Source: a virus (lineage: Duplodnaviria > Heunggongvirae > Uroviricota > Caudoviricetes). From it: a stretch of 38,688 bases of DNA. The position numbers were made by a program, and so were the translations under genes. Each line of letters opens with the position of its first letter. The stretch's first letter is position 1. Below the pieces are notes generated by a model that saw nothing but the letters and a program-made list of their open reading frames with translations, did not search any database and was not told where the DNA came from. Of the stretch, positions 9,699-31,160 are shown in pieces. The stretch lies in IMG/VR virus record IMGVR_UViG_2703718837_000002, one strand, 5' to 3'.

Positions 9699-9715
9699 AA
9701 ATTAATTAGAGCAAT
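9699..9715 (-). promoter_or_regulatory. C1 operator-like site upstream of ssb
   Basis: AAATTAATTAGAGCAAT, one mismatch to the reverse complement of ATTGCTCTAATAAATTT. Confidence 0.5.
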
Positions 9716-10406: not shown

Positions 10407-10650
10407 ACTCCGGCAGCTCCGCCGACTTTCGACAATGAAGTTATCGCTGGCGGCGATAGTTTTCGACTCGATTTTCATGGCGGTATATGTGCTCAATGAG
10501 ACGTGGCCACTGGAACCGCTATTGTATGCCGGGCTTCGGCTGTGCCTGACATTTTTGAGCATGGCTGCGAGATTGATGCAACAGAAAGAAACCGCTTCAG
10601 ATTGTCCACGCCGCGCGGTGCGCAAATATATGGCACGCAGGCGAAGATGA
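10399..10650 (+). CDS. Small two-helix membrane protein (83 aa) coupled to lyz
   Basis: ATG overlaps the lyz stop region; two hydrophobic segments followed by an Arg-rich tail. Confidence 0.4.
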   Translation: MNKLRQLRRLSTMKLSLAAIVFDSIFMAVYVLNETWPLEPLLYAGLRLCLTFLSMAARLMQQKETASDCPRRAVRKYMARRRR

Positions 10651-10660
10651 TTTAACCATT

Positions 10661-10693
10661 ATTGCTCTAATAAATTTGATTTATTAGAGCAAA
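10661..10693 (+). promoter_or_regulatory. C1 operator, perfect 17-mer with an overlapping inverted partial copy
   Basis: ATTGCTCTAATAAATTT at 10661-10677, then TGATTTATTAGAGCAAA at 10677-10693. Confidence 0.75.
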
Positions 10694-10861
10694 TAACCTA
10701 CCATCGAACACGGCTCTATTGATCTCATCGTCGTTCAGGCTTATAGTTCCACCGTCGTAGCAAATTCTGCGACCAGGTTTGACAGCCTGAATACGAATGC
10801 GGACAACCGCAGATTTCCGATATTGCGGTATTTTTGTGTCCGTAAACCACGTTACGCCCGA

Positions 10862-10944
10862 ATTATGGTGGGGCGTGATGGGGAGGCTTCGGCCTGCTGG
10901 TTTCATTCGTGCCAGTCTGTCAACCCTGTCACGTCCTGCCACCT
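10862..10944 (+). ncRNA. c4-like antisense RNA (module A); boundaries approximate
   Basis: UUCG-capped hairpin at 10883-10896, then CATTCGT (10904-10910) and CTGTCAA (10917-10923), exactly complementary to ACGAATG and TTGACAG at the icd-like RBS (10946-10985) and at an upstream site (10778-10799). Confidence 0.5.
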
Positions 10945-10993
10945 GTTTGACAGCGGGTCGCAGGTTGTTAAACCTACGAATGAGGCCGTAACT

Positions 10994-11215
10994 ATGGTTA
11001 ATGCCAATCCTTGCGCACGCCCTGAATTTATCTGGCGCTTTTACTCCTGCCAGAAACGTCACTATCACTTCGTAATTGCACCGACAGAAGATGAGGCCCG
11101 CTCTCTGCTTCCTGACGCTCCCTGCATTTTCTCTGCCCGCTTTTCCACTGATTCGCGCAACTCTCTCAGTTACTGGTGCCTCCCTGTTAACGCTTCTGCT
11201 CAGGAGGGACTATGA
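10994..11215 (+). CDS. Icd-like small protein (73 aa)
   Basis: ATG at 10994 preceded by GAGG; ATGA overlap with the Ant-like gene; FIWRF...EDEAR..L...C.F.AR pattern resembles Icd-like proteins; the ORF track's longer 10823 start is rejected. Confidence 0.6.
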   Translation: MVNANPCARPEFIWRFYSCQKRHYHFVIAPTEDEARSLLPDAPCIFSARFSTDSRNSLSYWCLPVNASAQEGL

Positions 11216-12303
11216 GAACGTCATTAGTCACCCGTGAAGAAATGATTGAGGCAATTGAACAGCACACATCCTGTATCAGTACCAGGGATATACCGGGTGT
11301 TATTGCCAACTACTTCATGATCACCAAACAACTTTACCGGAGAAAGGACAAGAACGCGGTTCACCGCATTCTGTTGTCTGATATCCGCGAATACCTGCTC
11401 GAACAGGGTCGTCTTGATTATGCAACCGTAACCGCCGAAGCACGCAAGGAGGCACACAGGATGAAAGCAACTAATGTTAAATCAGAAAAAATTACCCTGC
11501 CTTCAGTTCAGGAATCCGAGCTGGTGGTTGTTCAGAATCAGTCTGATGAAATTCCCGTTCTGGAATGGCTGGGAGTGCGTGTCGTAACGACCGAAACTCT
11601 TGCTAGAGGGTATGGTACCGATGAAGCCAATATTCGTAAAAATTTGTCTCGCAACTCCGATCGCTTTGAAGAAGGCAAGCATTACTATCTCTTAACCGGT
11701 TCAAAGTTAAAGGAATTTAAAAGGCTAGTGACTATTAGTCACTTGGTTAGCAAATATACAAGTCAGGTAATTCTCTGGACAGAGCGCGGCGCTGCACGCA
11801 TGTCTAAGATCGTGGACACAAATGAAGCATGGGCATTCTTTGAAAAACTGGAAGACAGCTACTTCCGACAAAAAGAACAGCAACCGGTCTCAATTCCCCA
11901 GACGCTTCCAGAAGCTCTGCGCCTGGCTGCCGAGTTGGCAGAACAGAAAATGCAACTGGAACAACAGCTGGTGGCCGCAGCCCCTAAAGTCGATTTTGCC
12001 GACCGGGTATCAGTGGCTAAGGGGATCCTGATTGGAAATTTTGCAAAGGTTGTTGGACTTAAGCAAAACGCGCTGTTTGCCTGGTTACGGGAGAACGGCA
12101 TCCTGATTGCGTCCGGCGGACGTAAAAATGTACCGTTTCAGCAGTACATAAACGCCGGGTATTTCACGGTGAAAGAAGTGGTGCTGGATGATGAAGATGG
12201 CTACCAGATACGGTTGACGCCCCAGCTAACGGGGAAAGGCCAGCAGTGGCTGACGCGTAAACTGCTCGATGCAGGTTTATTAAAGCCTGTAGCGGCTGAG
12301 TGA
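11212..12303 (+). CDS. Ant-like antirepressor paralog A (363 aa), Bro-N/ORF6N-like centre and KilA-C/Ant-like C-terminus
   Basis: Translationally coupled to the icd-like ORF as in P1 immI; about 90 percent identical to paralogs B and C outside a divergent central patch. Confidence 0.7.
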   Translation: MRTSLVTREEMIEAIEQHTSCISTRDIPGVIANYFMITKQLYRRKDKNAVHRILLSDIREYLLEQGRLDYATVTAEARKEAHRMKATNVKSEKITLPSVQESELVVVQNQSDEIPVLEWLGVRVVTTETLARGYGTDEANIRKNLSRNSDRFEEGKHYYLLTGSKLKEFKRLVTISHLVSKYTSQVILWTERGAARMSKIVDTNEAWAFFEKLEDSYFRQKEQQPVSIPQTLPEALRLAAELAEQKMQLEQQLVAAAPKVDFADRVSVAKGILIGNFAKVVGLKQNALFAWLRENGILIASGGRKNVPFQQYINAGYFTVKEVVLDDEDGYQIRLTPQLTGKGQQWLTRKLLDAGLLKPVAAE

Positions 12304-12315
12304 TTAAATTAAAAA

Positions 12316-12333
12316 GGCGGCCTTTCGGCCGCC
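12316..12333. terminator. Hairpin GGCGGCC-TTTC-GGCCGCC (also present after Ant B at 25815-25832)
   Basis: Perfect 7-bp stem; A-run upstream gives a T-run on the minus strand, so it may terminate the convergent pro transcript. Confidence 0.45.
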
Positions 12334-12347
12334 AGTGATTTCAGATA

Positions 12348-15175: not shown

Positions 15176-18100
15176 ATGAACAAGCTATCTATGGGGGTGT
15201 TTCGCTGTTCAAGTGTCAGCGAAATATTGAAATATATTAGGGCAATAACATTTCGCCGAGCGCCGATTAAATACGGCGTGGAAAAGGTGGAAGGCAAAAG
15301 CTATGACCGACTGCGCCGGGAGGCGAATCAGAAGGCGATAGATTTGCTTAATTCGCTGGTGGACGGCGCGACACTGACAGATGAACAGCGCCAGATCCTG
15401 GCTGGGTACACCGGTGAAGGCGGCATTGGCGGGTCCGTCTCCGAATATTACACACCAAAGCCGATCGCTGAAGGTGTCTGGGAGATCATGAAGCTCTACG
15501 GCGCGGACGTAGGTAACACTCTGGAACCATCGGCGGGAACCGGCGTTTTTAATGAGACAAAACCGGTTGGTACGGTGATGACCGCGACTGAGATCAGCAG
15601 TGTTTCCGGTCGTATAAACCAGTTGTTACACCCGGAAGACAGCGTACAGATTTCCCCGTTCGAACAGCTGGCTATAAGCACCCCTAACGATTCATTCGAC
15701 CATGTTGTGGGTAACGTTCCGTTCGGCGGTCGTGATAACACACGCAACATCGATAAGCCTTACGCAGAAGAAACGGACATGGGTTCTTACTTCATGCTCC
15801 GCATGCTGGACAAGATAAAGCCTGGCGGATTCATGTGTGTGATTGTGCCGCCGTCAATTGTTTCAGGTTCAAACATGAAGCGGTTACGCCTGCGCCTATC
15901 CCGTAAAGCTGAATTTCTTGGCGCTCACCGCTTGCCTACCGGTACTTTTGACGCAAACGGGACCAGTACAGTCGTTGATGTGGTGCTGATGCGCAAACAT
16001 CCGGCAGAGATGGCTGAGAAAATCCCCCTGGTGGATGAAAGCACTCTTGAATCGGCAAATGTGCTTTGGCCAACGTTTATTTCTGGCAAGTGGTTTGAAA
16101 AGGACGGCCGCCGGTTTGTTCATGGTACCCAGGAAAAGGGCTTCCAGGGGCGTATTGAGGTTCGTGCCGACGGGCAGATTGATAACCAGGCTCTTAAAGC
16201 GAAGCTGATTCATCGTTTCGAAAGTCGTATCGACTGGTCTTTGCTCGATATGGCTGAACCGTCACCGACCGCAGATGTTGTTGATGAAGGGGAAATGCGC
16301 CTGATTAATGGCGTATGGCAAAAATATGCTGGTGGTCGCTGGATTGAAGCTGATGCTGGTAAGGAGCTTAAGATTGATGCTGCCAGTTATGGCGCGGATA
16401 GCTGGGAGGCTCTTCAGCGTAACCTGACTACAACAGAAGGCCGTCTCGGTATGACATTTACCCAGATGGCAAATGTCCGCGATAAGTACACCACATCAAT
16501 CAGCGACGATATGGTGCAGCTGGTGGACTGGATTAACAGCCAGCCTGAAAAATACCGTGAACGCTTGTATCGCGGGGCGATGATTGGCCGGATGTTAATT
16601 GAATATCAGGATATGAAGGCCGCTGGGCATAGTGCTGAACAAATCGAACAGCAGCGCCTTTCTCTGGTGTCCCGTTTGCAGGCAGAGATTGACCGTTTTG
16701 GTAACCCCGGTCGCGGTCCGATAGCTAAATTATCGGGAAGCGGTGCGCGCGCCTGGTTTGCTTTCCGTGGTGCAATTAAGCTGGATGGCACTATTTCTGA
16801 CGAGCTGACAGGAAAGCTGGTTACGCATGATTCCAGCGCCAGTTATGACTCCACCAGCTATCAGGACACCCTGCGTTATCTCTATAGCGATCTTACCCGC
16901 GATCCAATCCAGCTCGATGATTTCCGCCTTGCGTTTACCGGCGAACTGCCAGCCAGTGATGAAGAGTTGCTTAATTTATTGGCCAGCACCCCTGGTATTG
17001 CGGTTTCACCGTATGGCGGGATTGTTCCGTTCGCCCGCGCCACCAGCGGCGACATTAACGAGATAGTGGCTCCAAAACAGGAATTCCTTGCCACACTCCC
17101 CGACGGTCCAGTAAAGAACAACGTCCTTAATCAGCTGGCAGCGATCGAAGAGAAGCGCATCAAGACGCCAGCAGAGAATATCCGCTTTAAGCTCAATAGC
17201 CGTTGGTTCGACCGCTCCGTCATTCTGGAGTTTTTGCAGGAAAACGGCTATCCGGATCTGCGCTATGTGCAGTCAGTGCAGCTGGAAGGCGACGAAATGG
17301 TTTCTGACACCTATCACGGTGGTGATGGTCTGTTCGTCGGACACCGATACGGTGTCGTCCAGCGCAAGGATAAAGAAACAGGAGAGATCCGCTACGAGTG
17401 GGACCGTAAATCAGGTGAAAACGCGACCGGGTTCCCGGCACAGCTGGAAAAGTATCTCAATGGTGCGCGTATCGGTGGCAAAGATAGCGCGACGGCGAAC
17501 GGCTACCGCGAGCAGATGGCACTGCTTGAGGACCAGTTCAATAAGTGGATCAAGACGCACGATCGCTACGATGAGCTGGTTGCCAAATACAACGATGTGT
17601 TCAATAGCAATATCCCGTATGAACACTCTGGCGATCCGCTTGGGTTGAAGGGATTAAGCGGTAAGCGCCAGCCATTTGATTACCAGAATAGCGAGGTGCG
17701 CCGACTGTCCGAAGATGGGCGCGGCATCCTGGGCTTCGGTACCGGGCTGGGTAAAACCACGACCGCGCTGGCGCTTGAGGCGTTCAACTATGAGAACGGT
17801 CGCTCCACCCGTACTGCTTATGTAGTGCCTAAATCAGTGCTGGAAAACTGGTATTACGAAGCAAAAGAGTTCCTGAGTGAAGAAGCCTTCAGTAACTACT
17901 TGTTCGTTGGACTGGATGTACTAATGGACGGCGATCAGATTCGCCAGGTTCCGGTGCTCGATGAGAACGGTAAACCTGTCCTTGGTGCTGATGGCACTCC
18001 ACTTATGCGCGATGCCCTTAAACTGGCAGATGAAGCCACTATCACGGCGCGTATGAACGCGATCCCGCACTCAAATTACCGTGCAGTCGTGTTTACCAAA

Positions 18101-21100
18101 GAACAATACGCCCGCATTCCGCTACGTGATGACACCGTAGATGAGCATGCACAGGATATGCTTTATGACTTCGTTGCTGCCGGGCGCGTAGCCAGCGCAA
18201 TGGACTCCGACTCCCACCGCAAAGAGGCCGCGCGTCGCCGGGTATTGTCGGAGTATTCAGATACCGGTACCGAAAAAGCAGAGAAGTATCCGTACTTTGA
18301 GGATATGGGCTTCGACAGCGTGATTGCTGACGAAGGCCACAACTACCGCAATAGCTATAAAAATGGTCGCGAAGCGTCACAGCTGGCCTATCTGCCCACC
18401 AGCGCGGTGGCGCAATCGGCGCGAGATATGGCAATCAAAAACGCGTACCTGATGAAAAAGAATGGTGGGCGTGGACCGGTTCTCCTGACTGCAACGCCAG
18501 TCGTTAACACCCCGATCGATGCATACAACATGCTTTCTCATGTTCTGCCGAAGGAATACTGGCAGAAGATGGGGATCTACGGTCCTGATGACTTCGTTAA
18601 ATTCTTCGGCAAGACCAGGCTGGAAACGGTACAGAAAATTAGCGGTGAAGTTGAAGAAAAAATGGCGCTGGTGGGCTTTGAAAACCTTGATGCGCTGCGC
18701 GGTATATTCCATCGCTGGGTAACGCTTAAAACGGCGGAAGACGTTAAGGATACCGTGGAGATCCCGGAGCTGGACGAACACCAGCAGGATGCACCACTTA
18801 CTGAAGAACAACTGGCGGCGTATGAAGAATTGCGTCAGCAGGCGGAAGCGGCGGCCAAAGCCAACAATGGCGTAACGACCTCGGTCAATGAAGACGGCGT
18901 GATTGAGCACGAGAAAGCCCGTCCGATCTTCTCAATAATCAGGGATATGGACCGCGTATGTACTGACATGGACCTGTACTATCGCCGGATCACCTATCGT
19001 TTCCTGCCGGAGTATGCCGATGCGGTGCAGCAGCTGGCGGACAGTTTGCCTAAACAAGCCACCAGCGAAGACGACGACAGTGATGATTCAATCACGCAGC
19101 AATCGCAATACTCCCTGATAGATAAGGGCGAGTTTATTCAGTTGCAGGTTCCGGAAGCGTTCGAGCAGGAAGTGAATAAGCGCCTGGCCAGGTTTGGCAT
19201 TGACGAACAGACCGTAACTCACCCCGTTACGCCCAAATACGCGAAGCTGATTGCCACGCTGAAGGAGTTTTTCCCGGAAGGTAAGCAAATCATCTTCACG
19301 GACGAAAAAACGCAGCACCAGAAGCTCAAGCGCATTATCTGCAATGCTCTTAACCTTGAACCTTCAAAGGTGGGGATCCTGAATGCTCAGACGGTTGCCG
19401 AGGCAGGTAAAACCGGTAAGAAACTGAAAGCGGTTAAACCGCCGAAAGAGTTACCGGATGAACCAACAGATGCACAGATAGCGAAATACAACGAGCAAAT
19501 GGCTCTGTATGACGCCTATATCGCGCAGCAAAATGAAATGTCGTTGGGCGGTCTGGAAAAGATTGCAGCCGACTTCCAGGAGGGCCGGACTCCGATCATC
19601 ATCTGCAACAAAAAGGCAGAGGTGGGTATCAACCTGCATCGAGGAACGACTGACATCCATCATCTGACGTTGCCGTGGACTCCAGCCAGTATCGCACAAC
19701 GTAACGGTCGCGGTGCCCGAGTTGGCTCCAACCGTGCAAGCGTTCGCGTTCACTACTACTGCGGCAAGGGTTCTTTCGATGAATACCGACTGAAGACGCT
19801 GAAGCGTAAAGCAGGCTGGATCTCCGATATCCTCCGTTCAGATAAGTCAGAAATGGAGAACGCCGACGCCAACGATATGATCGAAATGCAGATGTATACC
19901 GCTAAGGATGATGGCGAACGTCTGGCAATGATGCAGGTTCAAATGGATAAGGCGAAAGCCGCGCAACGCGCTCGCCAGAAAGAACAGGCTACTATCGACC
20001 TTCAGAACTACATCAAGGCGCAGCACGCAGCTGGCGAGGATGTGGAGGTACTTACCGCTGAATTAGAGCGAAGCAAAGCGGAACTTGAAAAGACCACCGC
20101 CGACGTCGACAAATTCAAACAAGCAGCAATGGCCAAAGCAGCTGATAACGCAGACTGGAAGGCACGTTGGGGGAGTGTCCATAACGCTGACCGTATGTTG
20201 TTAGCTCGATATCGCGCTTCGTTAAAAAATGCTATTCAACAGAAGGCTAATATCTCTCAAGCCATCTCCCGCTATGAGAAATTATTGAACCGTACCCAGA
20301 AGGCCGCGACGGATATCAAACGCCTGCGCCCGCTGGTGGAGGATGCAATAAATAAAGGCATTCTGGATGTTGATCCTGACCTGGTTAACCATGCGAGTGA
20401 GTTCCTTGTTATCGGCGATCGCTCATGGCGTGTAGGCCAATACTATGATTGTGCCGGTGATATCGTCCGCATTAAGTCTCTGGACTTCGACAGCCAGCGC
20501 GCAGACGTGGAGATCATCTTTACCTTCAAAGGCACAAAATCTGGTAACTGGGATGTGAAGACGCTGGATAAACAGGTGGATGTAACTCCCGATGAAGATG
20601 CTGTTATGCAGAAAATCAGTGGTGGCGTCTCCATCGCCGGGATTAACGACATCATTTCCTGTGACGATTTCTACCGTTTCCAGCAGCGCGGCATGATCAA
20701 AATCACTGACTCGTACGGCGTTCAGACTACAGAGTCAGGCTATAGCATTGATTTTGTTGGTACCTATACGGACCCACTGAAGCATGCGGTTTACCCGGAT
20801 CGCCGTGACGGCGCGCTGAAGTCGTCAATTGCAAAATGGGTGCTTGGTATGATGTCTGAAGGGAATAACCGCCAGGTCCGTTTGGCAGAAGTATTCCTGA
20901 CTGAACTGTTTGGCTCCAATTATGGCGATGTAATCGCGTCATATGGAGATACGCTATCCCCTGAAGCAATTCAGGAGAAAATAGCGGATGCGATCGCCAG
21001 AATGCCGGAGAAAACAAGCCAGGGGGCTACTCGTAACGGGGATTCTGAACTTGAGGTCACCAATGCCATTTTCGGTACCCATGAGTTCCGGGCGTCAGAT

Positions 21101-21943
21101 TATGAGATCACCACAGCACAGTTTGGCACCATTGGCATTTACAGCAATAAAGACGAGATCAAGCAGGCAATGGACGCAGCAAGCGCGCGCATCGCAGCAG
21201 AACGGGAAGCCAATCTGAATCATGCAGTCGCCGCGCTGACTCAATCGTGGGTAACAGCAATCAGGGAGGCCGCCACCACAGGGAAAATCACACCGGCAAT
21301 TGCGGATGTCGTAAACGACGGCTCTAAATTTATGGATGCCTATCAAATGGATGCGGTGCAGTTGCCATCAGCCTATGGCCAACTCAGCTATCGCATGACC
21401 TACAATCTGGTATCAATGTTTTCCGACCTTGCCATCCTTGGGCTGGTGGACCTTAACGAGGTTACGCCGGAATTGCTCAGCATTCGCAATAATCATGTGG
21501 AGATATTGCACAGAATTAACACGGTACTTGCCGGGCGCACCGATGAAGAAAAACAGGCAGACGCTGATCGGATAAACCTGGCCCTAGGCAACATCACGGA
21601 GGAAGAAATTGCCGCCAGAAACGAGAAACAAGAAGAGTTATCATCAATACAGGGTGATGCCACCAGCATAGCTCAGTCTCTTGGTCTGAATTATCGCGTA
21701 TCCACCGCCGACCTGAAGATGATGTACGCACCAAAATTCGCCGCTGGCGAGGTATTTGGGCTTCAGGAGGCGTCCGGCATGAAAGGCATTCTTTTCCGTG
21801 CGAAAGACGCAATCAAGGAAAAATTCGGCGCTCGCTGGCTGCCAGCGAAGGCGAAGAACAGCGATTTCCCAGGCAACTGGTGGATTATCGAGACAAAACA
21901 CAACGTGGCGGACGTTCTGGCCGTCATCCAACAATACGCATAA
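15176..21943 (+). CDS. darB: DarB, giant anti-restriction protein (2255 aa): N6-adenine methyltransferase-like N-terminus plus SF2 helicase core
   Basis: NVPF (NPPF-type motif IV) at 15713-15724; Walker A GTGLGKTT near 17748-17771; DEGH motif II at 18329-18340; length matches P1 DarB. Confidence 0.85.
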   Translation: MNKLSMGVFRCSSVSEILKYIRAITFRRAPIKYGVEKVEGKSYDRLRREANQKAIDLLNSLVDGATLTDEQRQILAGYTGEGGIGGSVSEYYTPKPIAEGVWEIMKLYGADVGNTLEPSAGTGVFNETKPVGTVMTATEISSVSGRINQLLHPEDSVQISPFEQLAISTPNDSFDHVVGNVPFGGRDNTRNIDKPYAEETDMGSYFMLRMLDKIKPGGFMCVIVPPSIVSGSNMKRLRLRLSRKAEFLGAHRLPTGTFDANGTSTVVDVVLMRKHPAEMAEKIPLVDESTLESANVLWPTFISGKWFEKDGRRFVHGTQEKGFQGRIEVRADGQIDNQALKAKLIHRFESRIDWSLLDMAEPSPTADVVDEGEMRLINGVWQKYAGGRWIEADAGKELKIDAASYGADSWEALQRNLTTTEGRLGMTFTQMANVRDKYTTSISDDMVQLVDWINSQPEKYRERLYRGAMIGRMLIEYQDMKAAGHSAEQIEQQRLSLVSRLQAEIDRFGNPGRGPIAKLSGSGARAWFAFRGAIKLDGTISDELTGKLVTHDSSASYDSTSYQDTLRYLYSDLTRDPIQLDDFRLAFTGELPASDEELLNLLASTPGIAVSPYGGIVPFARATSGDINEIVAPKQEFLATLPDGPVKNNVLNQLAAIEEKRIKTPAENIRFKLNSRWFDRSVILEFLQENGYPDLRYVQSVQLEGDEMVSDTYHGGDGLFVGHRYGVVQRKDKETGEIRYEWDRKSGENATGFPAQLEKYLNGARIGGKDSATANGYREQMALLEDQFNKWIKTHDRYDELVAKYNDVFNSNIPYEHSGDPLGLKGLSGKRQPFDYQNSEVRRLSEDGRGILGFGTGLGKTTTALALEAFNYENGRSTRTAYVVPKSVLENWYYEAKEFLSEEAFSNYLFVGLDVLMDGDQIRQVPVLDENGKPVLGADGTPLMRDALKLADEATITARMNAIPHSNYRAVVFTKEQYARIPLRDDTVDEHAQDMLYDFVAAGRVASAMDSDSHRKEAARRRVLSEYSDTGTEKAEKYPYFEDMGFDSVIADEGHNYRNSYKNGREASQLAYLPTSAVAQSARDMAIKNAYLMKKNGGRGPVLLTATPVVNTPIDAYNMLSHVLPKEYWQKMGIYGPDDFVKFFGKTRLETVQKISGEVEEKMALVGFENLDALRGIFHRWVTLKTAEDVKDTVEIPELDEHQQDAPLTEEQLAAYEELRQQAEAAAKANNGVTTSVNEDGVIEHEKARPIFSIIRDMDRVCTDMDLYYRRITYRFLPEYADAVQQLADSLPKQATSEDDDSDDSITQQSQYSLIDKGEFIQLQVPEAFEQEVNKRLARFGIDEQTVTHPVTPKYAKLIATLKEFFPEGKQIIFTDEKTQHQKLKRIICNALNLEPSKVGILNAQTVAEAGKTGKKLKAVKPPKELPDEPTDAQIAKYNEQMALYDAYIAQQNEMSLGGLEKIAADFQEGRTPIIICNKKAEVGINLHRGTTDIHHLTLPWTPASIAQRNGRGARVGSNRASVRVHYYCGKGSFDEYRLKTLKRKAGWISDILRSDKSEMENADANDMIEMQMYTAKDDGERLAMMQVQMDKAKAAQRARQKEQATIDLQNYIKAQHAAGEDVEVLTAELERSKAELEKTTADVDKFKQAAMAKAADNADWKARWGSVHNADRMLLARYRASLKNAIQQKANISQAISRYEKLLNRTQKAATDIKRLRPLVEDAINKGILDVDPDLVNHASEFLVIGDRSWRVGQYYDCAGDIVRIKSLDFDSQRADVEIIFTFKGTKSGNWDVKTLDKQVDVTPDEDAVMQKISGGVSIAGINDIISCDDFYRFQQRGMIKITDSYGVQTTESGYSIDFVGTYTDPLKHAVYPDRRDGALKSSIAKWVLGMMSEGNNRQVRLAEVFLTELFGSNYGDVIASYGDTLSPEAIQEKIADAIARMPEKTSQGATRNGDSELEVTNAIFGTHEFRASDYEITTAQFGTIGIYSNKDEIKQAMDAASARIAAEREANLNHAVAALTQSWVTAIREAATTGKITPAIADVVNDGSKFMDAYQMDAVQLPSAYGQLSYRMTYNLVSMFSDLAILGLVDLNEVTPELLSIRNNHVEILHRINTVLAGRTDEEKQADADRINLALGNITEEEIAARNEKQEELSSIQGDATSIAQSLGLNYRVSTADLKMMYAPKFAAGEVFGLQEASGMKGILFRAKDAIKEKFGARWLPAKAKNSDFPGNWWIIETKHNVADVLAVIQQYA

Positions 21944-23912: not shown

Positions 23913-24144
23913 CAGCGGCGGCTTAGCAAAACAACTGAAGGTAGCGCCCGGTACTCAGACTGTGCCGTCCATGGAATATTTGAAAAGGGATCCATCCGTA
24001 CCGGGCGTGTGATGATTCTGACTCAAGTCACTTGTCAGTTGTCAATTATTTCAGATTAAAAATAATATATTTATTAGTGCATACAATTAAAACAATAAGT
24101 GTGCACATTGCAACCTCGGAGAGGAAACATTCAACCAGATTGTT

Positions 24145-24161
24145 ATTGCTCTAATAAATTT
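24145..24161 (+). promoter_or_regulatory. C1 operator (perfect 17-mer)
   Basis: ATTGCTCTAATAAATTT. Confidence 0.75.
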
Positions 24162-24346
24162 GATTTATTGAAACAAATAAACTACTATTGGACGCCAGAC
24201 TATTGATCTTCCTGTTGTTCAGGCTTATAGTTCCTACGTCATAGCAAATTCTGCGACCGGGTTTAGCAGCCTGAATGTACATGCGGACAACCGCAGATTT
24301 CCGATATTGCGGTATTTTTATGTCCGTAAAACCGCGTTACGCCCGA

Positions 24347-24429
24347 ATTATGGTGGGGCGTGATGGGGAGGCTTCGGCCTGCTGGTTTCATGTACGCCAG
24401 TCTGCTAACCCCGTCACGTCCTGCCACCT
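24347..24429 (+). ncRNA. c4-like antisense RNA (module B); boundaries approximate
   Basis: Same scaffold as A, but core elements CATGTAC (24389-24395) and CTGCTAA (24403-24409) complement GTACATG and TTAGCAG at the B target sites (24262-24283 and 24431-24470). Confidence 0.5.
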
Positions 24430-24478
24430 GTTTAGCAGCGGGTAGCAGGTTGTTAAACCTGTACATGAGGCCGTAACT

Positions 24479-24700
24479 ATGGTTAATGCCAATCCTTGCG
24501 CACGCCCTGAATTTATCTGGCGCTTCTATTCTTGTCAAAAACGTCACTATCACTTCGTTATCGCACCAACAGAAGATGAGGCACGTTCTCAGCTTCCGGA
24601 TGCTCCCTGCATTTTCTCCGCCCGCTTTTCTACCGATTCGCGCAATTCTCTCAGTTACTGGTGCCTCCCTGTTAACGCTTCGGCTCAGGAGGGGCTATGA
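24479..24700 (+). CDS. Icd-like small protein (73 aa)
   Basis: Paralog of the module A icd-like ORF; GAGG RBS overlapped by the antisense target. Confidence 0.6.
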   Translation: MVNANPCARPEFIWRFYSCQKRHYHFVIAPTEDEARSQLPDAPCIFSARFSTDSRNSLSYWCLPVNASAQEGL

Positions 24701-25809
24701 GAACGTCATTAGTCACCCGTGAAGAGATGATCGAGGCAATTGAACAGCACACTGCCTGTATCAGTACCAGGGATATACCAGGTGTTATTGCCAACTACTT
24801 CATGATCACCAAACAACTTTACCGGAGAAAGGACAAGAACGCGGTTCACCGCATTCTGCTAACCGATATCCGTGAATACCTGCTCGAACAGGGTCATCTG
24901 AATTATGCAACCGTCGCAGCCGAAGCACGCAAGGAGGCACACAGAATGAAAGCAACTAACGTTAAATCAGAAAAAATTCATGCACCTTCAGTTCAGGAAT
25001 CAGAGCTGGTGGTTGTTCAGAATCAGCCTGATGAAATTCCCGTTCTGGAATGGCAGGGAGTACGTGTCGTGACAACCGAAACTCTTGCTAGAGGGTATGG
25101 GACCGAAACTAATAACATCAAAGTTAACTATACGCGTAATGCTGATCGCTTTGAGGAAGGTAAACATTACTTTCTACTAACTGGTTCAAAATTAAAAGAA
25201 TTGAAGGACAAGGTTACTCAAAGTAACTTAGTCGCACCGCGAGCAAAGCACCTCACTCTCTGGACGGAACGCGGCGCAGCCCGCCACGCTAAAATGATCG
25301 AAACCGATCAGGCATGGGCATTCTTTGAAAAACTGGAAGACAGCTACTTCCGACAAAAAGAACAGCAACCGGTTGCAATCCCCCAGACGCTTCCAGAAGC
25401 CCTGCGCCTGGCTGCCGAACTGGCTGAACAAAAGCAACTTCTGGAACAGAAAGCCCACCAGCTAAATCAGCAGCTGGTGGCCGCAGCCCCCAAAGTCGAT
25501 TTTGCCGACCGGGTATCAGTGGCCAAGGGGATCCTGATTGGGAATTTTGCAAAGGTTGTTGGACTTAAGCAAAACGCGCTGTTTGCCTGGTTACGGGAGA
25601 ACGGCATCCTGATAGCGTCCGGCGGACGTAAAAATGTGCCGTTCCAGCAATACATCAACGCCGGGTATTTTTCTGTGAAAGAAGTGGTGCTGGATGATGA
25701 AGATGGCTATCAGATACGACTGACGCCCCAGTTAACGGGGAAAGGCCAGCAGTGGTTGACGCGTAAACTGCTCGATGCTGGCTTGTTAAAACCGGTGGCG
25801 GCTGAGTGA
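24697..25809 (+). CDS. Ant-like antirepressor paralog B (370 aa)
   Basis: ATGA-coupled to the icd-like ORF; Bro-N/KilA-C-like architecture. Confidence 0.7.
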   Translation: MRTSLVTREEMIEAIEQHTACISTRDIPGVIANYFMITKQLYRRKDKNAVHRILLTDIREYLLEQGHLNYATVAAEARKEAHRMKATNVKSEKIHAPSVQESELVVVQNQPDEIPVLEWQGVRVVTTETLARGYGTETNNIKVNYTRNADRFEEGKHYFLLTGSKLKELKDKVTQSNLVAPRAKHLTLWTERGAARHAKMIETDQAWAFFEKLEDSYFRQKEQQPVAIPQTLPEALRLAAELAEQKQLLEQKAHQLNQQLVAAAPKVDFADRVSVAKGILIGNFAKVVGLKQNALFAWLRENGILIASGGRKNVPFQQYINAGYFSVKEVVLDDEDGYQIRLTPQLTGKGQQWLTRKLLDAGLLKPVAAE

Positions 25810-25956
25810 TTAAAAAAGGCGGCCTTTCGGCCGCCAATGATGTCACGGAGTCTGTAATAGCAATGTCTTTGTAGTTGACTAATTATATAAATAAATTATA
25901 GCAATTATATGTGGTTTGCTTATCGGGAATCACATTTCCTCACTTCAGTACCTATG

Positions 25957-27929: not shown

Positions 27930-27946
27930 AGAATTATTAGAGCAAT
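27930..27946 (-). promoter_or_regulatory. C1 operator-like site (2 mismatches)
   Basis: AGAATTATTAGAGCAAT. Confidence 0.45.
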
Positions 27947-28005: not shown

Positions 28006-28034
28006 TTTGACAATTGCTCTAATAAATTATAGTT
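28006..28034 (+). promoter_or_regulatory. Sigma70-type promoter with embedded C1 operator (P99-like), reading toward coi-c1
   Basis: TTGACA (28006-28011), 17-nt spacer containing ATTGCTCTAATAAATTA (28013-28029), then TATAGT (28029-28034). Confidence 0.65.
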
Positions 28035-28587: not shown

Positions 28588-29439
28588 ATGATAAATTATG
28601 TCTACGGCGAACAACTGTACCAGGAGTTCGTCAGCTTCAGGGATCTCTTTCTAAAAAAAGCTGTTGCACGCGCCCAACACGTTGATGCCGCCAGCGACGG
28701 TCGTCCTGTTCGCCCGGTTGTCGTTCTGCCGTTCAAAGAAACGGACAGCATTCAGGCTGAAATTGATAAATGGACTTTAATGGCGCGGGAACTGGAACAG
28801 TACCCAGACCTCAATATCCCAAAGACTATTTTATATCCAGTGCCTAACATCCTTCGCGGTGTGCGTAAGGTTACAACTTATCAGACAGAAGCTGTGAACA
28901 GCGTCAACATGACCGCTGGCCGCATTATTCATCTGATTGATAAGGACATTCGCATCCAGAAAAGCGCGGGGATCAATGAGCACAGTGCGAAATACATAGA
29001 GAACCTGGAAGCAACAAAAGAGCTAATGAAGCAGTACCCGGAGGATGAAAAATTCCGTATGCGTGTACACGGCTTTAGCGAAACAATGCTGCGCGTCCAT
29101 TACATTTCCAGTAGCCCTAACTACAATGATGGTAAATCAGTTAGTTACCATGTGCCGCTGTGTGGTGTGTTTATCTGCGATGAAACTCTCCGTGATGGAA
29201 TCATCATCAACGGTGAATTCGAGAAAGCAAAATTTAGCCTTTATGACTCTATAGAACCGATCATCTGCGACCGCTGGCCGCAGGCAAAAATATATCGCCT
29301 GGCAGATATTGAAAATGTAAAAAAACAAATTGCCATCACTCGCGAAGAGAAAAAGGTCAAATCAGCCGCATCAGTTACGCGCAGCCGTAAAACCAAGAAG
29401 GGGCAGCCAGTAAACGACAACCCCGAAAGCGCGCAATAA
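28588..29439 (+). CDS. c1: C1 repressor of lytic functions (283 aa)
   Basis: Starts MINYVYGEQLYQEFVSFRDLF, 283 aa, matching P1 C1; its operators are scattered across the window. Confidence 0.93.
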   Translation: MINYVYGEQLYQEFVSFRDLFLKKAVARAQHVDAASDGRPVRPVVVLPFKETDSIQAEIDKWTLMARELEQYPDLNIPKTILYPVPNILRGVRKVTTYQTEAVNSVNMTAGRIIHLIDKDIRIQKSAGINEHSAKYIENLEATKELMKQYPEDEKFRMRVHGFSETMLRVHYISSSPNYNDGKSVSYHVPLCGVFICDETLRDGIIINGEFEKAKFSLYDSIEPIICDRWPQAKIYRLADIENVKKQIAITREEKKVKSAASVTRSRKTKKGQPVNDNPESAQ

Positions 29440-29471: not shown

Positions 29472-30584
29472 TTATTCAGCCGCCACCGGTTTTAACAAGC
29501 CAGCATCGAGCAGTTTACGCGTCAACCACTGCTGGCCTTTACCCGTTAATTGGGGCGTCAGCCGTATCTGGTAGCCATTTTCATCATCCAGCACCACTTC
29601 TTTCACCGTGAAATACCCCGCGTTGATGTACTGCTGGAACGGCACATTTTTACGTCCACCGGACGCTATCAGGATGCCGTTCTCCCGTAACCAGACAAAC
29701 AGCGCGTTTTGCTTAAGTCCAACAACCTTTGCAAAATTCCCAATCAGGATCCCTTTAGCTACTGATACCCGGTCGGCAAAATCGACTTTAGGAGCGGCGG
29801 CCACCAGCTGCTGATTTAGCTGGTGGGCTTTCTGTTCCAGAAGTTGCTTTTGTTCAGCCAGCTCGGCAGCCAGACGCAGGGCTTCTGGAAGCGTCTGGGG
29901 GATTGCGATCGGTTGCTGTTCTTTTTGTCGGAAGTAGTTGTCTTCCAGTTTTTCAAAGAATGCCCATGCTTCATTTGTGTCCACGATCTTAGACATGCGT
30001 GCAGCGCCGCGCTCTGTCCAGAGTGTAAGGCTTCTGGCGTTCTTACCAACAGAGTAACTTCCGGTTACTCTGTTCTTAAATTCTCTTAATTTTAAACCAG
30101 TTAGAAGAAAGTAATGCTTACCTTCTTCAAAGCGGTCAAGGTTGCGAGACAAATTGTTGCGAATATTGGCTTCATCGACCCCATACCCTCTAGCAAGAGT
30201 TTCGGTTGTCACGACACGTACTCCCTGCCATTCCAGAACGGGAATTTCATCCGGCTGATTCTGAACAACCACCAGCTCTGATTCCTGAACTGAAGGTGCA
30301 TAAATTTTTTCTGATTTAACGTTAGTTGCTTTCATTCTGTGTGCCTCCTTGCGTGCTTCGGCTGCGACGGTTGCGTAATTCAGATGACCCTGTTCGAGCA
30401 GGTATTCACGGATATCGGTTAGCAGAATGCGGTGAACCGCGTGTTTGTCCTTTCTCCGGTAAAGTTGTTTGGTGATCATGAAGTAGTTGGCAATAACGCC
30501 CGGTATATCCTTGGTACTGATACAGGCAGTGTGCTGTTCAATTGCCTCGATCATCTCTTCACGGGTGACTAATGACGTTCTCAT
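29472..30584 (-). CDS. Ant-like antirepressor paralog C (370 aa)
   Basis: ATGA-coupled to the icd-like ORF; full-length paralog of A and B. Confidence 0.7.
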   Translation of the reverse strand: MRTSLVTREEMIEAIEQHTACISTKDIPGVIANYFMITKQLYRRKDKHAVHRILLTDIREYLLEQGHLNYATVAAEARKEAHRMKATNVKSEKIYAPSVQESELVVVQNQPDEIPVLEWQGVRVVTTETLARGYGVDEANIRNNLSRNLDRFEEGKHYFLLTGLKLREFKNRVTGSYSVGKNARSLTLWTERGAARMSKIVDTNEAWAFFEKLEDNYFRQKEQQPIAIPQTLPEALRLAAELAEQKQLLEQKAHQLNQQLVAAAPKVDFADRVSVAKGILIGNFAKVVGLKQNALFVWLRENGILIASGGRKNVPFQQYINAGYFTVKEVVLDDENGYQIRLTPQLTGKGQQWLTRKLLDAGLLKPVAAE

Positions 30585-30802
30585 AGTCCCTCCTGAGCAG
30601 AAGCGTTAACAGGGAGGCACCAGTAACTGAGAGAGTTGCGCGAATCAGTGGAAAAGCGGGCAGAGAAAATGCAGGGAGCGTCAGGAAGCTGAGAACGGGC
30701 CTCATCTTCTGTCGGTGCAATAACGAAGTGATAGTGACGTTTCTGGCAGGAATAGAAGCGCCAGATGAATTCAGGATGAGTTGGGGTAGGGACAGTAGCC
30801 AT
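30581..30802 (-). CDS. Icd-like small protein (73 aa) with a distinct N-terminus (MATVPTPTHPEFIW...)
   Basis: AAAGGAGG RBS; first nine residues differ from A and B, the rest is conserved. Confidence 0.6.
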   Translation of the reverse strand: MATVPTPTHPEFIWRFYSCQKRHYHFVIAPTEDEARSQLPDAPCIFSARFSTDSRNSLSYWCLPVNASAQEGL

Positions 30803-30857
30803 AATGGCAGCCTCCTTTGACTAAGTTAAGGAGCTACCGCGTGAGGTCTCAATCTCA

Positions 30858-30930
30858 ATGGCGGTAGCACTGACTGGGTTGAGACTACCGGCGTCAAAGG
30901 GAACCGGCCTGCCTTTCGGCAGCCCAGCCA
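30858..30930 (-). ncRNA. c4-like antisense RNA (module C); boundaries approximate
   Basis: Minus-strand GAAA-capped hairpin (30908-30925), then CCCTTTGAC (30893-30901) and GTCTCAA (30879-30885), complementary to GTCAAAGG(AGG) at the RBS (30811-30821) and TTGAGAC (within 30845-30859); the same two target motifs recur upstream at 31018-31044. Confidence 0.4.
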
Positions 30931-31142
30931 GCACTACCATTGATTTCGGAGCTAAACGCTACGTATGGCTGTGCGATGGCATGACACAAAAAAAAGACGC
31001 TTTCGGCGTCTGTGTCGCCTTTGACATTATTCGGGGTCTCAATCCCGGCACCCGTTTTAATGAGGTGCCTGATAAGCATAAACCGAAAATGCCTCAAGGC
31101 GCAAGAGGTCAGGTTCAATGTAACATCGGCAGTTAAAAAACA

Positions 31143-31160
31143 CAATTTATTAGAGCAAAT
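31143..31160 (-). promoter_or_regulatory. C1 operator-like site at the 5' edge of module C
   Basis: Minus strand reads ATTTGCTCTAATAAATTG. Confidence 0.55.

What the first reader, a model, noticed from the sequence alone, without database searches (positions are those of the whole stretch)
10776..10985. Modules A and B carry matched compensatory substitutions in antisense and target sites: two c4-like immunity specificities
In module A the motifs TTTGACAG and ACGAATG occur in sense at an upstream site (10778-10799) and again over the icd-like RBS (10946-10985, ACGAATGAGG covering the Shine-Dalgarno), while their exact complements CATTCGT and CTGTCAA sit together in a structured region between them (10904-10923). 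In module B every one of these elements is changed in concert: TTTAGCAG and GTACATG at 24262-24283 and 24431-24470, with complements CATGTAC and CTGCTAA at 24389-24409. The surrounding scaffold is nearly identical. Substitutions that preserve complementarity at three sites are the signature of a functional antisense RNA-target pair, as described for c4 RNA and the icd-ant operon of P1 and P7. Two specificities in one genome is unusual.
Basis: partly seen in the sequence, partly recalled or inferred. Interest (0 to 1): 0.85.

Follow-up and report, generated by a model that had tools for sequence, protein, structure and literature searches.

The report
Three orthogonal c4 antisense immunity cassettes
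A P1-like phage-plasmid carries three complete copies of the known c4 antisense-RNA/icd/antirepressor immunity module, each with its own matching RNA "lock and key", which is a new set of alleles and an under-described stacking of a well-known system rather than a new kind of system.

Summary
Modules A (10661-12303) and B (24145-25809) are collinear with the annotated P1 immI operon: C1 operator, promoter, a1/b1, 77-nt c4 RNA, a2/b2 over the icd ribosome site, icd, ant. Of the 26 substitutions in their 253-nt leaders, 18 fall in the 42 nt of the six pairing sites (p=1.6e-10). All 18 keep complementarity. Rfam finds C4 and c4-a1b1 in both modules. This one has an isrK-type leader and a third specificity.

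In 34 distinct natural leaders, c4/target pairing holds in 99.8-100% of cells, and 7 of 14 pairs change on both sides. The a site (2 alleles) and the b site (5 alleles) occur in 9 combinations. P1 is GA-GTTAG, P7 is AG-GATTG, module A is GA-ACGAA and module B is AG-GTACA.

Carrying more than one module is not rare. P1-like plasmids average about 1.5 modules per plasmid, and close relatives of this window carry four. Co-resident modules never share a specificity (28 pairs, permutation p=0.013).

Verdict: real, functional-looking new members of a known family. The stacking of orthogonal cassettes is the interesting part, and its function is only inferred.

The parts
10661..10677 (+). Module A: C1 repressor operator (perfect ATTGCTCTAATAAATTT), equivalent to P1 Oc4/Op51
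   Evidence: 0 mismatches; 7 sites in the window against 0.01 expected; position relative to a1 matches the P1 annotation
10719..10747 (+). Module A: sigma-70-like promoter TTGATC-17-TATAGT, equivalent to P1c4 (former P51b)
   Evidence: same offset from a1 as the annotated P1c4
10741..10800 (+). Module A: c4-a1b1 leader with a1 TTGACAG (10779-10785) and b1 ACGAATG (10793-10799)
   Evidence: Rfam RF03163 57.1 bits at 10741-10793; covariation with a'/b'
10861..10946 (+). Module A: c4 antisense RNA (77-nt mature form predicted at 10867-10943); b' CATTCGT 10904-10910 in the hairpin loop, a' CTGTCAA 10917-10923 in the junction
   Evidence: Rfam RF01695 69.8 bits; fold -43.3 kcal/mol, z -5.2; offsets from the P1 annotation
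10947..10985 (+). Module A: targets a2 TTGACAG (10947-10953) and b2 ACGAATGA (10976-10983), which run into the icd Shine-Dalgarno GAGG (10982-10985)
   Evidence: covariation
10994..11215 (+). Module A: icd-like gene (73 aa, 81% identical to P7 Icd); its stop overlaps the ant start (ATGA)
11212..12303 (+). Module A: antirepressor (363 aa) with a central ORF6N domain and a C-terminal KilAC domain
24145..24161 (+). Module B: C1 operator (perfect consensus)
24225..24284 (+). Module B: c4-a1b1 leader with a1 TTAGCAG (24263-24269) and b1 GTACATG (24277-24283)
   Evidence: Rfam RF03163 47.5 bits
24346..24431 (+). Module B: c4 antisense RNA; b' CATGTAC 24389-24395, a' CTGCTAA 24402-24408
   Evidence: Rfam RF01695 70.8 bits; fold z -5.4
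24432..24470 (+). Module B: targets a2 TTAGCAG (24432-24438) and b2 GTACATGA (24461-24468) over the icd ribosome binding site
24479..24700 (+). Module B: icd-like gene (73 aa)
24697..25809 (+). Module B: antirepressor (370 aa, ORF6N + KilAC). The whole cassette 24083-25811 replaces the P1 ref gene
31143..31159 (-). Module C: C1 operator-like site (2 mismatches)
30990..31068 (-). Module C: isrK-type leader with a1 TTGAGAC (31036-31042) in a hairpin loop, b1 GTCAAAGG (31018-31025), and an intrinsic terminator (30995-31011 plus a U run)
   Evidence: Rfam RF01394 59.8 bits
30857..30944 (-). Module C: c4 antisense RNA of a different scaffold; b' CCTTTGAC 30893-30900, a' GTCTCAA 30879-30885
   Evidence: Rfam RF01695 75.4 bits; fold z -5.4
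30811..30852 (-). Module C: targets a2 TTGAGAC (30846-30852) and b2 GTCAAAGG (30814-30821) overlapping the SD GGAGG (30811-30815)
30581..30802 (-). Module C: icd-like gene (73 aa)
29472..30584 (-). Module C: antirepressor (370 aa, ORF6N + KilAC), between pacB and c1
28588..29439 (+). c1 repressor gene (283 aa), the presumed target of the Ant proteins and the regulator of the three operators
   Evidence: annotated as phage repressor protein C1 at the equivalent position in pEA50_2 and pEA18_2

Best explanation
Each of the three modules is a self-contained immI-type immunity cassette of a P1-like phage-plasmid. A promoter next to a C1 operator transcribes one RNA. That RNA carries, in order, decoy sites a1/b1, the c4 antisense RNA, target sites a2/b2 over the icd ribosome binding site, icd, and a translationally coupled antirepressor gene (ATGA overlap). 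The folded c4 RNA presents b' in a hairpin loop and a' in a single-stranded junction. By pairing with b2 and a2 it occludes the icd Shine-Dalgarno sequence. That blocks icd translation and, through coupling, Ant synthesis, so the C1 repressor stays active and the prophage stays quiescent. The variable cores of a (2 nt) and b (5 nt) set the specificity. Module A (GA-ACGAA), module B (AG-GTACA) and module C (a different scaffold, TTGAGAC / GTCAAAGG) are predicted to be mutually orthogonal and orthogonal to P1 and P7. What the sequence shows: the anatomy, family membership, three-site complementarity, population-wide covariation, intact ORFs, and the fact that co-resident modules never share a specificity. 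What is inferred from P1/P7 work: processing to a 77-nt RNA, action in trans, and Ant binding C1. My own inference, untested: stacking orthogonal cassettes gives a lysogen several 'locks', which silence the Ant of several types of incoming relatives, and gives an infecting genome several 'keys', because any Ant the resident cannot silence inactivates the resident C1.
For: Rfam finds C4 three times and c4-a1b1 twice, plus one isrK hit, all above gathering scores. Spacing of a1, b1, c4, a2, b2 and icd is identical to the annotated P1 immI features (with coordinates). Substitutions concentrate in the pairing sites (18 of 26, p=1.6e-10). The alignment with P1 and P7 shows the same scaffold with allelic a and b cores. 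In 103 natural modules of this scaffold, 97 of 98 with all three sites scored by the pattern match are fully concordant. The formal pair count on 34 distinct leaders gives 99.8% (c4 with a2/b2) and 100% (c4 with a1/b1) of cells paired. Seven of 14 pairs change on both sides, no shuffle of 500 reaches the observed covariation score, and the signal collapses when the register is slid. The isrK-type scaffold shows the same three-site concordance for each of its 7 allele combinations. Folds put b' and a' in unpaired regions. Predicted duplexes are -25 to -28 kcal/mol for cognate pairs and -11 to -22 for non-cognate pairs. Perfect C1 operators lie upstream of A and B, and a 2-mismatch site lies upstream of C. 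The icd and ant ORFs are intact with ATGA overlaps, and the Ants carry KilAC domains. No specificity is duplicated among 28 co-resident pairs in 10 genomes (permutation p=0.013). The known mechanism and P1/P7 heteroimmunity are taken from the GenBank annotations and from reviews PMC12197685 and PMC8198154.
Against: There are no expression, processing or repression data for these modules. The Ant proteins differ from P1/P7 Ant1 in their central third (ORF6N domain, 61% identity overall), so their target might not be C1. Duplex energies ignore c4's own structure, and some non-cognate values reach -22 kcal/mol. Modules A and B each share one half-site with P1 or P7, so partial cross-talk is possible. 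A-type b' can pair with a P1-type b target through three G.U wobbles and one mismatch. The non-redundancy test rests on only 10 genomes that are not phylogenetically independent. The lock-and-key advantage of stacking is my inference and has no direct evidence.
Confidence: 0.75

Rival explanations
1. The c4-like element works mainly in cis as an mRNA structural switch, and the upstream a1/b1 segment is the active trans-regulator. In this reading a short terminated leader RNA carrying a1/b1 binds a'/b' and activates icd-ant translation, as shown for IsrK in Salmonella Gifsy-1. Specificity would then govern cross-activation rather than cross-repression.
For: The leader of module C is an Rfam isrK hit and ends in an intrinsic terminator before c4. 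In A and B, b1 is followed by a hairpin and a U run. a1/b1 covary with a'/b' as strictly as a2/b2 do, so pairing between a1/b1 and c4 is itself under selection. PMC4825925 shows experimentally that short IsrK acts in trans on the isrK-orf45-anrP mRNA to open the orf45 ribosome site, with translational coupling through an AUGA overlap, and that a processed RNA arises from the c4-equivalent region.
Against: For the P1/P7 scaffold, which A and B share at about 90% identity, c4 is annotated and reviewed as a processed 77-nt trans-acting repressor that determines heteroimmunity. The two modes do not exclude each other. The A/B hairpin did not meet the terminator scan's criteria.
Confidence: 0.2
2. 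The extra cassettes are passive recombination passengers: duplicated immI fragments that landed at hot spots and have no current function.
For: They sit at known variable sites of P1-like plasmids. These are the ref position, the pacB-c1 gap and the lyz-pro gap, noted as regions of difference in PMC6906374. Module A at its site is rare, in about 11 of 782 records.
Against: All ORFs are intact and the C1 operators are perfect. Three-site complementarity is kept in 97 of 98 modules. Co-resident modules are never redundant. The cassettes are clean 1.7-kb units with complete regulatory anatomy.
Confidence: 0.05
3. The extra Ant proteins (ORF6N type) are not aimed at the phage's own C1 class. They would be weapons against other repressors or host and defence factors, with c4 serving only to keep each one silent during lysogeny.
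For: The central third of Ant A/B/C is an ORF6N domain absent from P1/P7 Ant1. This is also the most divergent part among A, B and C. c4 type and Ant type reassort in natural modules.
Against: The N-terminal ~100 aa and the C-terminal KilAC domain are shared with P7 Ant1. Each cassette is under a C1 operator like canonical immI. There are no data on targets.
Confidence: 0.15

Closest known systems
c4 antisense RNA / immI operon (c4-icd-ant1/2) of phages P1 and P7 (Rfam RF01695 and RF03163; Citron & Schuster 1990 as cited)
   Same: Modules A and B have the same order and nucleotide spacing of operator, promoter, a1, b1, c4, a2, b2, icd and ant. The RNA fold is the same. Specificity follows the same principle: P1 and P7 themselves differ by the a core (GA/AG) and the b core (GTTAG/GATTG) at all three sites.
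   Different: The b alleles (ACGAA, GTACA) are new relative to P1 and P7. The cassettes lie outside the canonical immI locus (lyz-pro gap, ref position, pacB-c1 gap) and lack kilA-repL downstream. Their Ant has an ORF6N central domain. Several cassettes sit in one genome, against one each in P1 and P7.
IsrK - orf45 - AnrP locus of Salmonella Gifsy-1 (Rfam RF01394; PMC4825925)
   Same: Module C has an isrK-family leader with a terminator. It is followed by a c4-like structured RNA, a small ORF and an AUGA-coupled antirepressor.
   Different: Module C lies in a P1-like plasmid prophage under a C1 operator-like site. Its small ORF is an Icd homologue (88% identical to module A Icd). The IsrK paper describes activation by the short leader RNA, not c4-type repression.
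Extra icd/ant homologues noted in P1-like and D6-like plasmids (pSvP1, pTZ20_1P, RCS47 in PMC6906374; pYU39_89 in PMC6799933)
   Same: The insertion sites are the same (pacB-c1, and the region beside mat), and so is the gene content.
   Different: Those papers record extra icd/ant, and in one case a second antisense RNA, without analysing c4 specificity, three-site complementarity or non-redundancy. I could not read Gilcrease & Casjens 2018, which may say more.
P4 CI RNA with seqA/seqC
   Same: A processed antisense RNA flanked by upstream and downstream complementary sites. PMC4825925 names it as a structural analogue.
   Different: P4 CI causes transcription termination of replication genes, and no icd/ant is involved. 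This comparison was not tested here.

Membership tests
C4 antisense RNA (Rfam RF01695) | Covariance-model score above the gathering threshold (45 bits) | tested here: met
   69.8 (A), 70.8 (B) and 75.4 (C) bits, all full length 1-87
C4 antisense RNA (Rfam RF01695) | Long closing stem enclosing two hairpins, with b' in the second hairpin loop and a' in the single-stranded junction | tested here: met
   The MFE is the centroid structure for all three; z is -5.2 to -5.4; agrees with the Rfam structure line
P1/P7 immI operon | Target sites a2 and b2 complementary to a' and b', with b2 covering the ribosome binding site of icd | tested here: met
   Exact 7-8 nt complements in A, B and C; b2 runs into GAGG/GGAGG 8-11 nt before the ATG; 99.8% pairing across 34 variants
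P1/P7 immI operon | Second copy of the targets (a1, b1) upstream of c4 in the same transcript | tested here: met
   RF03163 hits in A and B; for C the sites lie in the isrK-type leader; 100% pairing
P1/P7 immI operon | C1-controlled operator at the promoter (Oc4/Op51) | tested here: met
   Perfect 17-mers at 10661 and 24145, and a 2-mismatch site at 31143-31159; binding itself was not tested
P1/P7 immI operon | icd followed by translationally coupled ant; Ant with a KilAC domain | tested here: met
   4-nt ATGA overlaps; Icd 81-88% identical to P7 and module A Icd; PF03374 E about 1e-31. The central ORF6N domain is a difference
P1/P7 immI operon | Location between sim and kilA-repL | tested here: not met
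   A lies between lydD and pro, B replaces ref, and C lies between pacB and c1. In the relative pEA50_2 the canonical immI is a fourth, separate copy
P1/P7 immI operon | c4 processed to a 77-nt RNA that represses ant in trans and sets heteroimmunity | not testable with these tools
   Needs Northern blots or RNA-seq, reporter fusions and superinfection assays
isrK (Rfam RF01394), module C leader only | Covariance-model score above gathering (50 bits), with a terminal intrinsic terminator | tested here: met
   59.8 bits, full length; terminator 30995-31011 plus a U run

The most novel reading that the evidence does not exclude
P1-like phage-plasmids use a combinatorial two-site RNA code (a x b: at least 9 types on the P1 scaffold and at least 7 on the isrK scaffold). 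They stack up to four or five mutually orthogonal c4-icd-ant cassettes per genome, never duplicating a type. This would be a multi-lock, multi-key system in an immunity arms race between related plasmid prophages. A lysogen would silence the antirepressors of several incoming types, and an infecting genome would need only one unmatched antirepressor to break the resident's C1 repression. The fact that some co-resident cassettes differ only in the 2-nt a core implies that both sites must pair for repression (AND logic).
Probability: 0.4. Interest if true: 0.65.

Novelty: new member of a known kind. Interest (0 to 1): 0.45.

Why it matters
c4 is a classic example of antisense-RNA immunity, but it has been treated as one locus with two alleles (P1 and P7). 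This window and its relatives show a larger natural set of orthogonal RNA/target pairs on a nearly invariant scaffold, deployed several per genome. If the stacking has the inferred function, it is a simple RNA-based way to broaden both superinfection immunity and the means of escaping it among competing plasmid prophages. Many of these plasmids carry resistance genes. It would also offer a ready-made set of orthogonal translational repressors for synthetic biology. For annotation, none of the public plasmid tables I examined list these RNAs, although the PLSDB tables carry no RNA genes at all.

Tried and rejected
1. A gapped pairwise alignment of the A and B leaders introduced false indels in the b sites and undercounted in-site substitutions. 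I replaced it with an ungapped comparison around the single real indel.
2. My first regular expressions missed a2/b2 in modules with trivial scaffold variants such as CCCGTTT or AATTCA. After relaxing the patterns only one true discordant module remained, L066. The two GA-ACTTG modules still escaped the b2 pattern, but they are concordant by eye.
3. I tried to tell canonical immI from extra cassettes by a tblastn hit to KilA downstream. This failed because KilA shares the KilAC domain with Ant, so I dropped that column.
I therefore do not claim a terminator there.
5. Gilcrease & Casjens 2018, Riedel et al. 1993 and Lobocka et al. 2004 are not held in the library. Prior description of multiple c4 types in those papers cannot be excluded.
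6. I considered that the window is plasmid pEA18_2 itself, which is 100% identical over module A. I rejected this because that plasmid has a type III restriction-modification system where the window has a 2255-aa darB-like ORF.
7. I did not run protein database searches, structure prediction, or metagenome and genome-collection scans, because the question was settled at the RNA/DNA level.

Full report
**What the window is.** The window is part of a P1-like plasmid prophage. It matches P1, P7 and relatives at 93-99% over lyz, pro, mat, c8 and cre. It has ORFs matching, from my own knowledge of P1, the sizes of DarB (2255 aa), Cre (343 aa), C1 (283 aa), PacB (494 aa) and PacA (397 aa). Its closest complete relatives in PLSDB are Escherichia albertii plasmids from cranes (pEA50_2, pEA18_2) and a few E. 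coli plasmids.

**Checking the observation.** The two modules align without trouble from the C1 operator into ant.

- In the 253-nt leader (10741-10993 versus 24225-24478) there are 26 substitutions and one indel.
- Eighteen substitutions fall in the 42 nt that make up the six 7-nt sites, and eight fall in the other 211 nt (Fisher p=1.6e-10).
- All 18 are matched. GA becomes AG in a1 and a2 while TC becomes CT in a'. ACGA becomes GTAC in b1 and b2 while TCGT becomes GTAC in b'.

It is not true that every difference is in a pairing site, but the enrichment is overwhelming.

**What it is.** Rfam finds C4 antisense RNA (RF01695) at 10861-10946 and 24346-24431, and the c4-a1b1 motif (RF03163) at 10741-10793 and 24225-24277, all above gathering scores.

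The P1 RefSeq record annotates Oc4, two promoters, a1, b1, the 77-nt c4 RNA, a2, b2, icd and ant1/2. Modules A and B reproduce these distances to the nucleotide. Measured from a1, b1 is at +14, c4 at +88, a2 at +168, b2 at +197 and icd at +215.

The other parts of the anatomy also match:

- **Operator.** Each module starts with a perfect 17-bp C1 operator.
- **Promoter.** Module A has a promoter-like TTGATC-17-TATAGT at the position of P1c4, and module B has the same two hexamers at the equivalent offset.
- **Fold.** Each RNA forms a long stem enclosing two hairpins, with b' in a 9-nt loop and a' in a 7-nt junction (z about -5.3).
- **Target.** b2 runs into the icd Shine-Dalgarno sequence.
- **Coupling.** icd (73 aa, 81% identical to P7 Icd) overlaps ant by ATGA.

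**Relation to P1 and P7.** Aligned with P1 and P7, the scaffold is nearly invariant and only the cores change.

| Element | a core | b core |
|---|---|---|
| P1 | GA | GTTAG |
| P7 | AG | GATTG |
| Module A | GA | ACGAA |
| Module B | AG | GTACA |

So A and B reuse the two known a alleles and carry two b alleles that neither P1 nor P7 has.

Rfam also finds a C4 at 30857-30944 on the minus strand, preceded by an isrK-family element at 30990-31068. This is a complete third cassette with these parts:

- an operator-like site at 31143-31159;
- a1 TTGAGAC in a hairpin loop and b1 GTCAAAGG in the leader;
- an intrinsic terminator;
- c4 with b' CCTTTGAC and a' GTCTCAA;
- a2 and b2 over the SD GGAGG;
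- icd (30581-30802) and ant (29472-30584).

It uses a different scaffold but the same logic and has a third specificity.

**Insertion sites.** Compared with P1, module A (window 10647-12346) replaces 19 bp between lydD/lydE and pro. Module B (24083-25811) replaces ref exactly. Module C lies between pacB and c1. None is at the canonical immI position. In pEA50_2 the same three cassettes sit at the same three sites, and a fourth, canonical immI (icd-ant-kilA-repL, P7 type) lies elsewhere. Rfam finds four C4 RNAs in that plasmid. The part of this genome outside the window probably holds a fourth module as well.

**Evidence from natural variation.**

- *P1-type scaffold.* A pattern scan of IMG/VR with the c4 scaffold, leaving the cores free, returned 97 stretches of DNA. 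Together with the window and reference loci this gives 103 modules and nine a x b combinations. Of the 98 modules in which all three sites were scored by pattern matching, 97 are fully concordant.
- *Formal pair count.* On 34 distinct leaders, 99.8% of cells pair for c4 with a2/b2 and 100% pair for c4 with a1/b1. Seven of 14 pairs show changes on both sides. No shuffle of 500 reaches the observed covariation score. Pairing drops to 25-52% when the register is slid.
- *isrK-type scaffold.* A similar scan returned 77 modules (window included) and seven combinations, again concordant at all three sites in each example read.
- *Caveat.* The sequences are related, so the shuffle control overstates independence. 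Even so, several alleles on an otherwise nearly constant scaffold, found in all combinations, is strong evidence that the pairing is selected.

**How common stacking is.** A leader-plus-icd query hits 680 PLSDB records at 1038 places. In an even sample of 60 records, about a third have two or more places and a few have three or four. IMG/VR contigs carry up to four P1-scaffold modules, or three plus a C-type module. In ten genomes with two to four P1-scaffold modules (28 pairs), no type is repeated, and a label permutation gives 1.3%. Some co-residents differ only in the a core (GA-GTACA with AG-GTACA), which suggests that the 2-nt a core is enough to separate two specificities.

**Mechanism.** The steps from pairing to ribosome-site occlusion to loss of icd translation and ant expression come from the P1/P7 literature, as summarised in the GenBank notes and in PMC12197685 and PMC8198154. 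They are not shown here. Predicted duplexes favour cognate pairs (-25 to -28 kcal/mol) over non-cognate pairs (-11 to -22). The strict covariation of a1/b1 with c4 means that this upstream pairing matters too. For the isrK-type leader there is experimental evidence that a short terminated leader RNA acts in trans to open the downstream ribosome site (PMC4825925). I keep that as a serious, non-exclusive rival for how these cassettes switch on.

**The antirepressors.** Ant A, B and C are 88-90% identical to each other and 61% identical to P7 Ant1. They share its N-terminal ~100 aa and its C-terminal KilAC domain, but they have a central ORF6N domain that P1/P7 Ant1 lacks. c4 type and Ant type reassort among natural modules. 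Whether these Ants target the same C1 is unknown.

**Comparison with what is known, and novelty.** The system is the c4-icd-ant immI module, and on every sequence-level criterion A, B and C are members. Only genomic position departs from the type (see the membership table).

- Extra icd/ant copies at these sites have been noted in passing for pSvP1, pTZ20_1P and RCS47 (PMC6906374).
- A second antisense RNA plus icd was noted for a D6-like plasmid (PMC6799933).
- In the searchable library I found no analysis of c4 specificity types, their combinatorial a x b make-up, or non-redundant stacking.
- The key subscription papers could not be read.

I therefore rate the finding as new members of a known kind. 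The stacking and code aspect is the most novel reading, and it is neither excluded nor proven.

**Verdict.** The finding is real and correctly interpreted. It is moderately interesting: the biology is a known paradigm, but the window shows it in an expanded, multi-cassette form that invites a direct orthogonality experiment.

Noticed in passing
window 29472-31159 (minus strand): A third complete c4-icd-ant cassette that was not in the finding. It has an isrK-family leader with an intrinsic terminator in place of the c4-a1b1 leader, and its own specificity (a TTGAGAC, b GTCAAAGG).
   Followed up: yes
L066:4678-4923 (IMG/VR 2565956613_000015): The only discordant natural module. Its b1 and b' are ACGAA type but its b2 is GTTAG (P1) type, which looks like a single-crossover recombinant. 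The mismatched pair can still form 3 G.U wobbles with 1 mismatch. An A-type c4, including window module A (which also shares P1's a core), might therefore partly repress P1-type targets, but not the reverse.
   Followed up: partly
alignment A5 and loci L004-L179: The a and b alleles occur in nearly all combinations. Each allele must be present at three sites, interleaved as a1 b1 .. b' a' .. a2 b2, so simple crossover would need three exchanges. How the combinations arise is unexplained.
   Followed up: no
window 11212-12303, 24697-25809, 29472-30584: The three antirepressors carry a central ORF6N domain (PF10543) that P1/P7 Ant1 and the canonical Ant of pEA50_2 lack. This central region is also where the three differ most from one another.
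   Followed up: partly
window 24083-25811 versus P1 2077-2637: Module B replaces the ref gene exactly, and the left junction abuts the Omat C1 operator. C1 operators may act as recombination landmarks for cassette exchange.
   Followed up: partly
window 9699-9715, 15230-15246, 27930-27946, 28013-28029: Four further C1 operator-like 17-mers with 1-2 mismatches, besides the three at the cassettes. One matches the position of P1 Ossb. Two lie between cre and c1. One lies just inside the start of the 2255-aa ORF.
   Followed up: no
window 30846-30858 (minus strand): In module C the a2 core TTGAGAC is preceded by a conserved scaffold copy of TTGAGA. With this allele there are therefore two adjacent potential a' binding registers. 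With other alleles (for example TTGGAAC) only one matches.
   Followed up: no
window 15176-21943 versus L001 and L180: The window has a 2255-aa darB-like ORF where the otherwise closest plasmids (pEA50_2, pEA18_2) carry a type III restriction-modification system, an HTH regulator and an EAL-domain gene. The window therefore comes from a different mosaic of the same lineage.
   Followed up: no
L102:9125-9298 and L102:28156-28399 (pEA50_2): The relative plasmid also carries a sok antitoxin RNA hit and a cluster of three tRNA genes. These lie outside the region homologous to the window.
   Followed up: no
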